Assembly: GCA_951406725.2 (NCBI GenBank)
Contig: OX597823.1
Span: 42,222,001 to 42,286,000 of the forward strand
DNA: 64,000 nt
Direction of reading: 5' to 3'
DNA from: Octopus vulgaris
Lineage: Eukaryota
The notes beneath the pieces are model-generated. The model did no database searches. It was given only the letters and a program-made list of their open reading frames with translations, and was not told the DNA's origin. The translations under genes and the position numbers were made by a program. This document shows, one piece after another, positions 4,413 to 56,234 of the stretch; position 1 is the first letter of the stretch, and each line of letters begins with the position of its first letter.

Positions 4413-4703
4413 AGTTTTGAATGGTACAACAATGCACTATAGTACAAACTATGGGCTACATACCTGTTGTAATTTAGTCATCCTTAGTCTGATATGATAT
4501 TTTGGAATAAAATTCCTTCTTCAGATATTCTTAGATGAAGTCACTGCTATAATCAGTTTTCCAACGGTTAGTAGCGACTCCATCTAAGAATATCTGAAGA
4601 AGGAATTTTATTCCGAAATATTATCAGACTATAGATGATGAAATTACAACAGGTATATAGCCCATTGTTTGTATTATAGTGCATTGTTGTACCATTCAAA
4701 ACT
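4413..4703. mobile_element. Foldback element with a minimal hammerhead-like core in each arm
   Basis: Inverted arms of about 135 bp (agttttgaatggtacaac...gttgtaccattcaaaact). The + arm at 4594 reads CTGAAGA A GGAAT-TTT-ATTCC GAAATATT; the - arm has the same motif with AAAAT. Confidence 0.75.
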
Positions 4704-7700
4704 TTTTATTCTTTATAAATATAATTTCCCTAGTTGTTAATTTCACTTTCAGAGTATAAAACATGTACAATGTGTGTGTGTGTGTGTGTGGGTTTGTATA
4801 TGTGTTTCATCATCATTTAACATCTGTCTTTCATGTTGGAATAGGTTGGATGGGTCATTCCAGCCACCCACAACTTATCTTATTTCTAGATATGTAATGT
4901 AAAAGGTGCCAAACTGGATACAAACTAACAATCACCTGGGGAAAAACCCATTTATATCTACATATTCAGGAATAAGATATCTGATGGTAATGGAGATCAA
5001 AATATAGTGTACATATTAATATTGTAAATATACTTTCTAAACAAAGTAGATAATCTAAGAAGATATGATAATCTTTATAACAACAATTTAACTCAGACAT
5101 TCAGATATCTTAGGATTTGTAGACTTACTTCAATCTTTTTGCAATTCTTTATATTACCTTTGTGCACTTGTAAAGCAATTGTTTTGGTTTTCAATATTTT
5201 TTATCTTCCGTACATTTCTGTGATGATTCAGTGTGTATATTTAGTGTATATTTAGTGTTTGTACATTAAATGCATGTCTTGAAAGCTTGTTTACCAAATT
5301 TGACACAGACTTATGTTCAGTGTCAATGAAATTTTTCATCCAGCGTTCATCATCAAAGTGAGTTGTATGTTAGTATAATGTATAGAAGTAAAGTGGTGAA
5401 CTGGCAATATCGTTAGCATGCTGGAGAAAATGCTTAGTGGTATTTCATTCATTTTTATGTTCTGAGTTTAATTCCACCAAGGTTTACTTTGCCTTTCATT
5501 CTCTTGGCGTCAATAAAATAAGTGCCAACTGGGCAAATGGGTTGATGTAATCAACTTATCCCCTCCCCTGAACTTGCTGGCCTTGTGCCACAATTTGAAA
5601 CCAAGAGATTGGGGATCTGAAGTTAGAGTATAAAGCATAAAAACTTCCAGTAGTCAGTATTGACCCCTGAGGGTTTTATGTGGCTCTGTGAAGATTTAAT
5701 AAATACTTGAAATTATTTTGAAACACATTCTCTATTAAATATTCAAAGATATATCAATATGATATGACTGAAACTTTATGGTTCCCTTCCAATTTCATTA
5801 TGTGGCTCAAAATGTTTATTTTTAAAAAGTAATTATGAAATGAAAGAAGGTTTTTAAGTCAAGAAATGTTTTATTAATTACACTTCTAAATTTTATTTTA
5901 GAACTTCACATGTTTGGGTGGCAATAAGTTATTAATGATTTCATGAAGAGACAGACCAATGATATAAGAAATTTGCCAAACCCTGGTATAAAGTATAAGT
6001 TGTAGATGAATTACTATAAAGGGAAATATTCTTCTCTTGTAAAACATGTAAATATTGTCAGGTTTTCAGTGATAAAAGGTCTCAATAAAGAATGTTGGTA
6101 TTTATTTTATATATTTATGTTTGCATTTCTTTAACTGTTTAGTTCTATGTGTGTGGTTAATAAAGGTTACCTTCATTAGTCATGCTGACTTATAAGCCTG
6201 GTTTCCATGACATATAAATTCCCCACCTGGATGGATAGGATGCCAGTCCATTGTAGGTTTTACTCATTTTTGCCAGCCAAGTGGACTGGAGCAACAGGAA
6301 ATGAAGCGTTTTCGCCCAAGAACAGAACGTCCAGTCCAGGAATCAAAGCCTCAATCTTACAGTCATGAGTCCGACACCCTAACCACTGAGCCATGTGCCT
6401 CCTGTGAGGGTAATAGTCCTGGCTCTTTTGTAAGACCTCTCAAAACAAGTGAGATTGATGCATTTGTGGTTGACTGTTTGCACTCCACTCCATCCCTACC
6501 TCACCACCACCACCACCACCACCACCACACCAAAGGAAATGGAGGGAATTTCAGAAGAAAATTCTATCTGATGGAAGGAGGATAGGATTTATAGAAGTGT
6601 TAAATGCACAGAATAGAAATTATACAAGGTGAAACTGGATTTTTTAACAATTTGTATTATACCATTTGCTGTGGACTGGTAGACATTTTGAAATTTACTA
6701 TATTGGTTCTTTCATTCCTTGTATTACATTTTAACATGCCATTCTCTAAAAAAAGAGAAAGAAAGAAAGAAAGAAAGAAAGAAAGAAAACAAGGTTGTAA
6801 TATTCAGTTGTTTTTTACTCATGCATTGAAGTTTTCATAGCCATTACATTGGTACAAGTTCTCTTCTTGGGTTAGATTCCATGAACAAAGTCCAGGTCAC
6901 TATTTCTATTTTTGGAATTAAATTTTTAAATTGTTGGAAGATTTATTTTGTTCGTATTCCTTCTTCTTGTCATATAATATTTATTGTCTGACACGGATGT
7001 TTAAATTCGACTAGACTTACAGGCTTTATATATGTATATATTATTATACATTAGTGTGGTCAGTCAAACTTCTCTGTTTTCTTTCACACCAGCCGGAGAC
7101 TTTCGGCCTCAAATCCTCAGCCATCATAAATCTTTTATTAGGAATTATGTTTTATGACTCACATAAAAATATTTTTTTCCATGTTATTTAATATTCAACT
7201 TTTTATTCTTTGATTACTCATACATACGCACACACATACAGACACTCATACAAGTGCATGTATGCATGTGCACACACAGACACACACACACATCTAATAT
7301 CTTTGAATTGTGACCTCAGTCAAAACTAGCCTCTACCACATCATATAACCATTTACAATACAAATTATTTTTTTACATTATATATCATCATCTATATATA
7401 ACGGCCATCTTCTATGCTGGCATGGGTTTCACAGTTAGGAAGATCTGACAAACCAGAGGACATTAAATGATGATAATGATAACAATGATATATATTGAGA
7501 GAGAGAGGGAGAGAGAGAGAGAGAGAGAGAGAGAGAGAGGGAAATATATCACTGAGAAAGCAAACTTAAGCTGAAACACTAGTGTATGATAATCTGCTGA
7601 TGTTATTTGCTGCGTGTTTCTACATACATTGTCTCTAGTCAATTTGTTCTCCAAGATATGTTTGTGTGCATGCATGCATGTATAATTATATGTGTGTGTG

Positions 7701-8266
7701 AGTAGCATGTAGAACACTTCCCTAAAGTGTTTGTTCTCAGCTCTATGATTGATATATAAAGTTTTATAAGTTTTAGCAGTTCTGTTTCAATCAACTAATC
7801 TGCAATACCCATGTTTTTTATTTTCTTGTTTTGTTTTTCCTCCCCATCTTAAACATTAAGTTACTAAATAATATTTTCTCCACAACAAAATCCTTTGCCT
7901 GAATAATGTCAATAGTGACTCTTTATATTGTTAAATGTATATAATATATATGTATATTGTATTGTCTATCATTTTTTTCTCTTAATATCTTCCTTGCAGA
8001 TGTCTTGTGATCATACGTATCTTAAAACCTACTCTGAGATTTGGCAATAAAAATCTTTTTCTTTCCCTACCAGAGCTAAATGGTTACTATTTACTAGTCT
8101 TTATGTTAAATCAATGTACTATTTTCTCTTTTTTTTTGCTGTATATTTGTTTAGTTTTTACTTCATTTTTCTGTTTCTATTTACAGTTCTTTCATCTAAA
8201 TATTTAAAGTGTGTTTCATTGTAAGCAACAGATACACTCCCTTGCTTTTTTTTTCCATTATTTCAG

Positions 8267-53790: not shown

Positions 53791-56188
53791 GTAAGTAATT
53801 CCACTAATCTTCTACTACATTTTCTTCTTTGGTCACTCAAACAACCAGAAGACTATCTTTGGTTTCAGAAATTTTTTTATTTTTATATTTTAAATCTGAT
53901 ATAGGATTGGATCAGTTCAGATATTTTCTCTGACTGATTGTATTTTCATGTAATATTCCTGCTTCAATTATAGGGGCATATACGTCTCCAGTTGTCTTAT
54001 TCAATTTGCTTCTCTAATAATGTTACAAAATGCACAATCATGCATGCACAGCCAAACATACATATCATGCATATGCTATTTATCATCGAGTCTTTATTCA
54101 TATTAATATTTCAATATGTAATTATATTGTTTTTCTTTTATTTATTTACATTTTTACATTATTATATTTCATCAACAAGTCATAATTAATTTTGTCATGT
54201 TTTAATTTTATATTAGCCATATATATATATATGTATTTATGTGTGTGTATATATATATATATGTATATATATATATATATGTGTGTGTGTGTGTATATGT
54301 GTATATATATGTATATATGTGTATATATGTGTATATATATATATATATATGTATATATATATATATGTATATATATATATGCATATATATATATATATAT
54401 ATATATATATATGTATATATATATATGCATGCACATGTGTACATACATGTATATCTAATGTATAAATATATATATATGTATATATATATACGTGTTGTGT
54501 GTCTACAATAAGACAAATACATTCATGCATACGTGACATTTCCATCTTCACCTCCATATTCATGCATATATTTTAACATTTTCAATGCTCTTTCTATTCG
54601 TTTCAACCTTATATGAGCATTCAATATGCAGTCATTCATTTACATGTTTGTTTCAATTAATATTTTAAACCATTTGTGAACATCTCTAATATTGCCTATT
54701 CATACTTTAAACATATACAACCAGCCATGGATTTCCTGCTTTTATTTATTTATGTTTTTGACCACACATACTATATATTGTTATACATACACATCTTTGA
54801 TTTATTTACACATGTGTACGAATTCATACATATAAAAATAAATGTATGTATGTATGTATATATATTTTTATAAATGTAAACATAAATATGTCTTTAGAGA
54901 GAGAAAAAGTGTGTGTGTGTGTGTGTGTGTGATAATGTGTGTGTGTGTGTGTGAGAGAGAGTGTGTGTGCATGTGATAGTGTGTGTGTGTGAGAGAGAGA
55001 GAGAGCAAGAGAGAATCAATCAGATATTTATATCATTTTATGTATGTATTTAGAAGAAACAGTATCACCTTAGTGTAACATCTTATGACTAACCTCTTTT
55101 CCATAATTATACCTGTAGCAAATAAAAAATTAAGAACGACCATTATACCAACTATATGAAACAATTCAAATAAGAAAGTGACAATAAGTAGAGACAGCGA
55201 TTAAAGAATGAAAAGTACACTTATATAACTGGGTAATTCCCATCATCAGCTACCAATCAGTTATGCTCATGGTTTTGACAACTTAAGGCAGAATAATTTT
55301 CTTTAATGCTGTCAAACAACATTAAAAAATATAGTGCAGTTTTGTTGAAAAAGGGAAAGCATACTTTTATCTAGATTTTAAAACACAAATACAAAAACTG
55401 AAAACATAACATGTAGAATAAAAATTACGACCAATAAATTATAATACTTGCACTGAAATTATGAGAAACATACCTTGACTAAAACAACAAAACACTAGTG
55501 AAGTAAAAGTAAAACAGGAGGGTAAATAATAATTTATTATGAATATATTTATCATAAAATTCATATAGACTATGATTTTAAGTTTTACCTGACAACTTTT
55601 ACAACTAGCCGTAGCTTATTTGCAGAAGACATAACTTTTATGATAAATTTGACTCTGCTCGCTCTTAAATTTGAGTACTATTCCATTTGTGACTTGTTCT
55701 GCAACTAGCTTTAAAATAATAACCGCCATGTAAAATTTATACATAAATATGCATGTAATTTATATTGTTATATTAGTACATATGCACATTTATAAGTACA
55801 TGTATGTATGTATTCATAAATGCATGTAAGCATGCACACACATATACATACTTGTATATGTGTGTGTATATGTATGTATATATATGTGTGTGTGTATGTA
55901 TGTATATATATGTATGTATATATATATATATGTACATCTATCTATCTATCTATCTATCTATCTATCTATCTATATATATATATATATATATGTGTGTGTG
56001 TGTGTGTGTGTGTGTGTGTGTGTGTATATATATATATATAGAGAGAGAGAGAGATCTTGTACACACAATAGAATCAAAGATACTTAAAGATATCAAAATA
56101 TTAGACAGTCTTTAGCTGTGACTAAGAACTATGTTAGAATGCAAATAATTCTTCTATACTTTTAATGTGTAGCAAAAAAATGGAGGTT

Positions 56189-56234
56189 CTACTTACAGAC
56201 CATTTCCTGAGTTCTTTATTACTCATTAGAGAAG
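56189..56234 (-). ncRNA. Heavily degenerate hammerhead-like remnant
   Basis: Minus strand reads CTTCT CTAATGA GTAATAAAGAACTCAG GAAAT GGTCT GTA^AGTAG. Confidence 0.3.

What the first reader, a model, noticed from the sequence alone, without database searches (positions are those of the whole stretch)
4413..56234. A population of diverse hammerhead-ribozyme mini-retroelements colonising (TA)n tracts
Seen: about 11 loci with little or no visible mutual similarity share only the type I hammerhead architecture (stem I, CUGAnGA, stem II, GAAA, short palindromic stem III, NUH). They lie at 4594(+/-), 8589(-), 14839(-), 15119(-), 21360 (half), 21734(-), 22391(+), 24463(+), 24706(+), 47297(-) and 56189(-). 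The elements are roughly 0.2-0.9 kb, non-coding, and mostly bounded by TA runs. Established: minimal type I hammerheads with palindromic stem III mark Penelope-like element pLTRs and metazoan non-LTR retrozymes. Inference: roughly one per 6 kb from many families suggests a very large, probably under-annotated ribozyme retroelement system in this lineage, mobilised by Penelope-like RT/GIY-YIG proteins that favour (TA)n.
Basis: partly seen in the sequence, partly recalled or inferred. Interest (0 to 1): 0.88.

Follow-up and report, generated by a model that had tools for sequence, protein, structure and literature searches.

The report
Penelope hammerhead ribozyme repeats, genome-wide
Most of the listed spots are broken copies of short jumping-gene repeats that carry a hammerhead-shaped, likely self-cutting RNA motif, occur tens of thousands of times in this animal genome, and were probably spread by Penelope-like retrotransposons, a kind of system already described in other animals.

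Summary
Real, but a known kind. Nine of 11 listed loci belong to repeat families with complete type I hammerheads; 14839 is doubtful and 56189 unconfirmed. Only 2 window copies (21809-, 24710+) pass a strict scan (0.11 expected). In a 1.2-Mb systematic genome sample, 41 complete motifs were found against 1-5 in shuffles, about 90,000 genome-wide; with decayed copies, one per 12 kb. The set is mixed. Family C (535-nt unit, 99% identical) and family D (364 nt) are non-coding tandem retrozymes with Penelope-type inversions. Family A (24467) is the 3' end of a Neptune-type Penelope element. Intact 781-aa RT/GIY-YIG elements ending in hammerhead, tail and (TA)n exist. (TA)n adjacency is strong for C and A, absent for E and B. 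Twist: family A has 7,583 exact CCGA (U4C) cores against 2,681 CUGA. Cleavage is untested. The model is published (PMC4209133, PMC7229834, bioRxiv 2026.07.22.740005), and this scan reported a similar CCGA-core tandem retrozyme on other DNA of this genome.

The parts
4413..4703 (.). Family G, about 290-nt head-to-head (palindromic) insertion with a hammerhead remnant on each arm (cores at 4594+ and 4524-); both broken here
   Evidence: (11 of 17 loci complete: ATAT CTGAAGA A GGAAT..ATTCC GAAA TA TC^ATAT)
8575..8675 (-). Decayed long-stem-II hammerhead (core 8664), architecture like family F
   Evidence: relatives L099, L226, L269, L173; 4 insertions in 1.2 Mb
14816..14938 (-). Doubtful hammerhead: stems I-III present, core with an extra A in 3 of 3 copies
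14956..15295 (-). Family D element (364-nt tandem unit), hammerhead core at 15164, with a 76-nt inverted copy of its 3' end; family core mostly CCGAUGA
   Evidence: (CCGA 21, CTGA 3, CCAA 2)
21027..21427 (.). Family H head-to-head insertion between TA runs, truncated just before the core (half hammerhead at about 21312-21380)
21452..22284 (-). Family C young retrozyme: one full 535-nt unit plus a 298-nt 5'-truncated upstream unit between TA runs; complete hammerhead, core 21809, predicted cut after 21740
22310..22522 (+). Family E copy, hammerhead broken (core CTGAGTA); family not TA-associated
24390..24599 (+). Family A: solo 3' terminal repeat (pLTR) of a Neptune-type Penelope element; minimal hammerhead with GAAA>AAAA break, ends in (TA)n
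24635..24850 (+). Family B head-to-head element with a complete hammerhead (core 24710); its forward arm ends in a tail 72-78% identical over about 90 nt to the 3' tail of a second Neptune family
47200..47520 (-). Family F copy, hammerhead core 47339, stem II eroded
56185..56240 (-). Unconfirmed look-alike (core CTAATGA), no family support

Best explanation
These loci are mostly decayed copies of many short repeat families whose type I hammerhead motif likely self-cleaves as a dimer and which were likely inserted by Penelope-like (mainly Neptune-type) RT/GIY-YIG proteins; they comprise solo 3' terminal repeats of such elements (family A) and non-coding tandem retrozymes (families C, D). Shown: hammerhead architecture, copy numbers, tandem and head-to-head arrangement, fixed 3' tails, (TA)n adjacency for C and A, intact RT/GIY-YIG elements with the same end anatomy, and family A at the end of a Neptune coding remnant. 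Inferred mechanism: read-through transcription of a tandem copy gives multimeric RNA. Two hammerheads pair through their palindromic stem III and cut inefficiently. The Neptune protein nicks (TA)n DNA and primes cDNA at the RNA's 3' tail, 100-300 nt downstream of the cut site. It copies across cut sites on uncut multimers or ligated circles and stops at random points, often with a 5' inversion. Inserted copies then decay neutrally.
For: 41 complete motifs in 1.2 Mb against 1-5 in 4 shuffles. In the canonical-core scan, whose filter did not require it (the parse score favoured it), stem III is self-complementary (score 0.83-1.0) in 21 of 21 hits. 25 sequence clusters keep the same fold. Homologues chosen by BLAST show paired changes in stems I-III, and D relatives switch C3-G8 to U3-A8. 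Family C: 98-99% identical copies on many contigs, arrays of about 13 units, head-to-head inversions whose inverted arm mostly stops about 100 nt short of the 3' end, 21 of 21 3' ends at (TA)n; these are the PLE hallmarks of PMC8557442 Fig. 2. 21 of 28 unbiased hammerheads have a TA run within 250 nt downstream against 17.3% background. GIY-YIG search: 6,136 candidates, many 781-aa open frames with RT, Cys linker and GIY-YIG. L206 has Neptune RT/EN remnant, 1.7-kb CA-rich UTR without a TA run, family A, then (TA)n. Circular monomers of C and D fold at z -6.7 and -6.1.
Against: No cleavage, circle or transposition assay. Only 2 of 11 window copies are complete. No autonomous partner sharing an end was found for C, D, E, F, G or H among the roughly 45 GIY-YIG loci examined. 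The A link rests on one full locus (L206) plus partial upstream sharing in L224; the B-Neptune tail is seen in one copy only. E and B are not TA-adjacent. In the 2026 preprint 8 of 9 tested Xenopus retrozyme dimers gave no cleavage, and PLE minimal hammerheads cut poorly in vitro. Of 5 isolated window motifs folded, only 21809 was more stable than shuffles, and its predicted structure is not the three-way junction.
Confidence: 0.8

Rival explanations
1. All the families are simply 5'-truncated ends (solo pLTRs) of autonomous Penelope-like elements; none is an independent non-autonomous element.
For: True for family A. A low-complexity UTR hid that link from my first coverage test, so it could hide others. 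A Poseidon-like family has its hammerhead directly behind the ORF (L216, L224, L186).
Against: C and D occur as head-to-tail arrays of a non-coding unit in which the 3' end joins the 5' start directly. No ORF of 90 aa or more lies inside the C unit. Copies of B-G share no sequence beyond a few hundred nt apart from their own tandem units.
Confidence: 0.1
2. The hammerheads are inactive passengers; the repeats spread as tail-bearing SINE-like or satellite DNA, and arrays grow by unequal crossing-over.
For: The most abundant exact core in family A is U4C, reported to lower activity in vitro (PMC3088659); a related family has A6U. Units inside one C array differ nearly as much as between arrays (5.2 and 3.5 against 6.2 differences per 428 nt) and L331 shows a 4-unit higher-order pattern. 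5' truncation points show no peak at the cut site (3 of 51 within 10 nt).
Against: Core and stems are kept across 25 unrelated clusters, with compensatory changes including C3-G8/U3-A8. The core-dead G5A form has only 214 exact copies, a decay level, while both U4 and C4 forms spread.
Confidence: 0.08
3. The motifs are chance matches in AT-rich, microsatellite-rich DNA.
For: CTGAnGA alone is at chance level; 56189, perhaps 14839 and 7552, may be chance.
Against: 41 against about 3 in shuffles; 98 against 0 homologous loci; thousands of exact family copies with 0 for the reversed control pattern.
Confidence: 0.02

Closest known systems
Minimal type I hammerheads in pLTRs of Penelope-like elements (Cervera and de la Pena 2014, PMC4209133; parts 1-2 of 4 read, supplements not seen)
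   Same: Short helix I, unpaired base 5' of helix II, palindromic or loop-less helix III, U3-A8 variant, many families per genome, mostly solo motifs, opposite-strand pairs 100-700 bp apart, few inside full elements.
   Different: Estimated number is larger (about 90,000 complete against 2,000-9,000 reported; descriptors differ). High-copy U4C and A6U cores and 40-50-nt loop-2 insertions are not in the text I read; figures and supplements were not seen.
Metazoan non-LTR retrozymes (Cervera and de la Pena 2020, PMC7229834; parts 2-3 of 6 and passages read)
   Same: Non-coding tandem units with one type I hammerhead each, low GC, strongly self-paired circular fold, co-occurrence with autonomous PLEs; mussel units 350-390 nt resemble family D; axolotl has 126,247 motifs.
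   Different: Family C unit is 535 nt, above their 170-400 nt. Circular RNA is not shown here. Arrays carry PLE-type inversions and tails and sit in (TA)n.
Non-LTR retrozymes as non-autonomous PLE derivatives (Li, Clavereau, Pollet, bioRxiv 10.64898/2026.07.22.740005; parts 1-3 of 5 read, supplements closed)
   Different: 35 genomes with no mollusc (0 hits for octopus, cephalopod, mollus, CCGA). No insertion-site anatomy or TA analysis in the parts read.
Neptune-clade EN+ PLEs (Craig et al. 2021, PMC8557442; passages read)
   Same: C-terminal GIY-YIG, Cys-rich linker, (TA)n bias, partial tandem and inverted copies, tail at one end only.
   Different: Tail of family C is about 100 nt rather than 30-40. 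Clade placement here is by motif, not by tree.

Membership tests
Type I (minimal) hammerhead ribozyme | Order stem I - CUGAnGA - stem II - GAAA - stem III - NUH - stem I | tested here: met
   Met at family level for 9 of 11 loci and in the window copy for 2; not met for 56189; 14839 has a core insertion
Type I (minimal) hammerhead ribozyme | Palindromic helix III allowing a dimer fold | tested here: met
   21 of 21 canonical-core sample hits score 0.83-1.0; A and G have no loop 3 (ACGU, AUAU)
Type I (minimal) hammerhead ribozyme | Covariation of stems among homologues | tested here: met
   7 BLAST-chosen H relatives (L327 gave no anchored match) keep stems with paired changes; D relatives change A-U to G-C and C3-G8 to U3-A8. 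Small n; no tree-aware statistic
Type I (minimal) hammerhead ribozyme | Site-specific self-cleavage | not testable with these tools
   Only contigs were available; they cannot show RNA ends
Non-LTR retrozyme (families C, D) | Non-coding tandem units each with a type I hammerhead | tested here: met
   C: 535-nt period, 54 of 60 segments complete, arrays of about 13 units; D: 364-nt period
Non-LTR retrozyme (families C, D) | Highly self-paired monomer | tested here: met
   Predicted circular fold z -6.7 and -6.1 against 25 shuffles each
Non-LTR retrozyme (families C, D) | Expression as linear and circular monomer RNA | not testable with these tools
   Head-to-tail joint in contigs also exists in DNA arrays
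Non-LTR retrozyme (families C, D) | Loop 1-loop 2 tertiary contact of canonical hammerheads; long target-site duplications | not tested
   TSDs cannot be read inside (TA)n; tertiary contacts not examined
Non-LTR retrozyme (families B, E, F, G, H) | Head-to-tail tandem units | tested here: inconclusive
   Mostly single or head-to-head copies among the loci fetched; a few same-strand neighbours for E and F
pLTR of an autonomous PLE | Element lies at the 3' end of an RT/GIY-YIG ORF in sense | tested here: met
   Met for family A (L206); not found for C, D, E, F, G, H; B shares only a tail in one copy
Neptune-clade EN+ PLE (candidate driver) | Single ORF with RT, Cys linker and C-terminal GIY-YIG; 3' hammerhead; (TA)n flank | tested here: met
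   781-aa frame in 8 of 10 loci fetched; PF00078 28.9 bits (just under the 29.6 cut-off) and PF01541 30.6 bits; UUGAUAA hammerhead or a variant, tail, (TA)n
Neptune-clade EN+ PLE (candidate driver) | Phylogenetic placement in Neptune; ability to mobilise C or D in trans | not tested
   No reference PLE proteins were fetched; no tree built

The most novel reading that the evidence does not exclude
This genome holds one of the densest hammerhead loads known (about 30 complete motifs per Mb), and several of its most successful families spread with cores that standard descriptors exclude: U4C (CCGAnGA; 7,583 exact copies in family A, majority in D, present in an autonomous Neptune end) and A6U (CUGUnGA). 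Deliberately weak, dimer-dependent ribozymes would leave multimeric RNA, and Neptune RT copying of such multimers would explain the heterogeneous 535-nt arrays.
Probability: 0.3. Interest if true: 0.65.

Novelty: new member of a known kind. Interest (0 to 1): 0.42.

Why it matters
It extends the Penelope-hammerhead-retrozyme link to what looks like a cephalopod genome (taxon inferred from size, contig number and repeat content; no call names it). It supplies a testable pair that published work lacks: a very young 535-nt retrozyme and an intact 781-aa RT/GIY-YIG element with the same (TA)n end anatomy. High-copy U4C and A6U cores mean CUGA-only scans miss up to about half of complete motifs here (20 of 41 sample hits are non-CUGA, about 3 of the 41 being chance).

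Tried and rejected
(1) Rfam: no hammerhead among the 150 of 206 window hits shown (56 weaker not shown); 0 hits at gathering score in 7 loci, most holding complete motifs. (2) My idea that the CUGA cores are CpG-decay products of CCGA masters was rejected for family A: CCGA 7,583, CTGA 2,681, CCAA 214, so CUGA is a real subfamily. (3) Single-monomer rolling circle for C arrays is not supported: units within an array differ. (4) 5' ends set by the ribozyme cut: not supported, 3 of 51 within 10 nt and 11 extend upstream of the cut (points read, which left 4 matches unlisted). (5) Family G at first seemed to lack stem I; re-parsing with a loop-less stem III gives 4 bp, so no rewired topology is needed. 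(6) Family D beside a Poseidon-like ORF (L105), G between Neptune fragments (L130) and E near one (L146) were judged chance neighbours from orientation and intervening repeats. (7) Coverage profile showed no upstream extension for A but was misled by a low-complexity UTR. (8) Sequencing runs: no RNA holder listed; contigs only, no molecule ends. (9) Core tallies for B, E and F by regex were noisy and are not used beyond noting CCGA copies. (10) Paper searches listed no study of hammerheads in octopus or other cephalopods; PMC6962438 (giant squid, one mention) was seen only as a listing. The library lacks most subscription papers. (11) 14 further GIY-YIG loci were not fetched and 6 only in short form, so partner searches are incomplete; 7552 and family C were not counted genome-wide.
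Full report
Setting. The window is G000:C10:42222001-42286000 of a 2.80-Gb assembly in 227 contigs. It is 33% GC and full of microsatellites. From size, contig number and repeat content I infer a cephalopod; that is recalled knowledge, not a tool result.

Checking the motifs. 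CTGAnGA occurs 30 times against 27.4 in local dinucleotide shuffles. A full type I descriptor (stem I at least 3 bp, stem II at least 3 bp, GAAA, paired stem III, NUH) gives 2 hits, 21809- and 24710+, against 0.11; 0 of 100 shuffles reach 2. 15164- appears if stem II may be 2 bp. So only 2-3 of the 11 listed copies are complete. Own-genome DNA searches returned 605-2,663 candidates for each of seven loci. Complete hammerheads occur in 19 of 29 A, 8 of 24 D, 12 of 19 F, 11 of 17 G, 6 of 19 E and 1 of 21 B loci (duplicates and the window's own copies dropped; fixed 700-nt slice) and in 54 of 60 C segments. The 21360 half is a head-to-head copy cut before the core; 7 relatives are complete. 8664 has relatives with a 7-bp stem II. 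14839 has an extra A in the core in all 3 copies seen. 56189 found only itself and one weak partial match without a hammerhead.

Scale. I took 120 stretches of 10 kb at fixed 20-Mb steps (one start shifted by 100 kb). Canonical cores: 21 hits against 0-2 in 5 shuffles. Four core types with a palindrome filter: 41 against 1, 4, 5, 2 (CUGA 21, CCGA 8, UUGA 7, CUGU 5), or about 89,000 genome-wide (62,000-123,000). Using all 219 complete motifs as a BLAST library gives 98 homologous loci in 1.2 Mb, 0 in one shuffle and 10 in the window. The library includes motifs from the sample itself, and arms more than 50 nt apart count separately. This extrapolates to about 230,000. Complete motifs over all loci fall into 25 clusters. 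Rfam found none at gathering score in 7 loci.

Anatomy. Family C is young (best copies 99% identical) with a 535-nt period. Insertions have a fixed 3' end followed by (TA)n in 21 of 21 independent loci, a 5'-truncated unit upstream, and often a head-to-head inverted arm that usually stops at unit position 428-442, leaving out a tail of about 100 nt. Loci were chosen for a full-length match. Two arrays hold about 13 units. The predicted cut is at unit position 247, 288 nt from the 3' end. Truncations are spread on both sides of it, so cDNA runs across the cut site and the template must be uncut multimer or ligated circle (inference). Units within arrays differ (5.2 and 3.5 per 428 nt against 6.2 between arrays), with a 4-unit pattern in L331. 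This argues against copying one monomer circle and fits multimeric templates or later DNA-level duplication. Family D has a 364-nt period with the same tandem and inverted layouts. B, G and H are mostly head-to-head palindromes. These layouts match the PLE description in PMC8557442.

TA targeting. A TA run lies within 15 nt of the 3' end in C 21/21, A 20/29, D 6/24, F 5/19 (16/19 within 150), G 4/17, B 0/21, E 0/19; background 2.6%. Among 28 unbiased sample hammerheads, 21 have a TA run within 250 nt downstream against 17.3% (P=3e-11, treating hits as independent).

Drivers. A PF01541 search gave 6,136 candidates, 150 scored, many in 781-aa open frames. [quoted passage not shown] Its 3' end is a U3-A8 hammerhead, a tail and (TA)n. 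A second Neptune-type family (L330, L294, L318) ends in a CCGA/CUGA hammerhead and a tail 72-78% identical over 89-98 nt to the window's locus-B tail; I saw no other B copy with that tail. In sample locus L206 a decayed Neptune RT/EN is followed by 1.7 kb of CA-rich sequence without a TA run, then family A, then (TA)n; L224 shares part of the upstream extension. Family A is therefore the pLTR of a Neptune-type element, present mostly solo with a fairly fixed 5' limit, about 33,000 copies (14 in 1.2 Mb). No partner was found for C, D, E, F, G or H.

Core variants. Exact 29-nt counts for family A: CCGA 7,583, CTGA 2,681, CCAA 214, reversed control 0. Symmetric CpG decay explains only about 214 of the CTGA, so both U4 and C4 masters spread and C4 spread more. 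Family D is CCGA in 21 of 26. U4C is known from a viroid, with lower in vitro activity but enough in vivo (PMC3088659 passage). A homologue of A at the end of another Neptune family has CUGUnGA (5 sample hits).

RNA. No run was on record as RNA. Contigs from 8 runs cover the C unit; the head-to-tail joint appears in 4 but also exists in DNA. T>C at 21655 (A>G on the hammerhead strand) appears in X2, X7 and X14 (three studies), not in X15, and in 0 of 73 genomic segments. This is a weak hint of A-to-I-edited sense transcripts; strain differences can mimic it.

Comparison. Cervera and de la Pena 2014 described minimal hammerheads in PLE pLTRs, massive numbers, many families and weak dimer cleavage. 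The 2020 paper defined non-LTR retrozymes and named PLEs as likely drivers. A 2026 preprint argues that they are non-autonomous PLE derivatives, without molluscs, and found cleavage in 1 of 9 tested. Supplements of these papers were not seen and may list core variants. Earlier notes of this scan describe a 359-nt CCGAUGA retrozyme elsewhere in this genome, probably my family D; I did not align them. Look-ups by sequence for C and A showed nothing.

Verdict. Real, new members of a known kind, with unusual scale and core variants. Cleavage and trans-mobilisation are inferred. Interest 0.42.

Noticed in passing
window 7547-7590 (+): Unlisted hammerhead-like motif with 5-bp stem I, perfect 10-nt palindromic stem III and core CTGAGAA (G8>A); no relative in about 2 Mb of fetched DNA.
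   Followed up: partly
window 32059-32135 (+): Truncated 3' end of the Poseidon-like family whose hammerhead (GACAC CUGAUGA AGGCUGG) was 5 of 21 canonical sample hits; core lost here. In L216, L224 and L186 a tRNA-like stretch and (AAT)n lie between ORF and hammerhead.
   Followed up: partly
L197:6840(-), L221:3882(+), L265:5863(+), L286: Neptune-end hammerhead family with a CUGUnGA (A6U) core, 5 hits in 1.2 Mb, homologous to family A.
   Followed up: partly
window 21606-21686: Cluster of T>C differences in contigs of runs guessed to be RNA (X2, X7, X14), largely absent from 71-77 genomic segments; possible A-to-I editing of the hammerhead strand. Some sites (21674, 21683) also occur in X15 and are probably alleles.
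   Followed up: partly
run X1 on window 21451-21985: A single closed 565-nt contig equal to one 535-nt unit plus overlap; could be a circle or a collapsed tandem array.
   Followed up: no
window 24765-24850: Locus B's forward arm switches to a Neptune-type tail while its inverted arm keeps the usual B tail; possible RT template-switch chimera, one copy only.
   Followed up: partly
window 25344-25420: Short solo tail related to a widespread AT-rich end motif beside (TA)n, resembling the family C tail; 10 matches in fetched loci.
   Followed up: partly
L331 (G000:C28:10731000-10740500): Family C array with a 4-unit higher-order pattern of variants.
   Followed up: partly
window 17164-17690, 33928-34209, 41566-42238, 56907-58874: Decayed mariner-like, LINE-like, Tc1-like and RTE-like coding fragments judged by eye from ORF translations; names recalled, not searched.
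   Followed up: no
window 62105-63332: 384-nt inverted arms (89%) and 27-nt tandem arrays.
   Followed up: no
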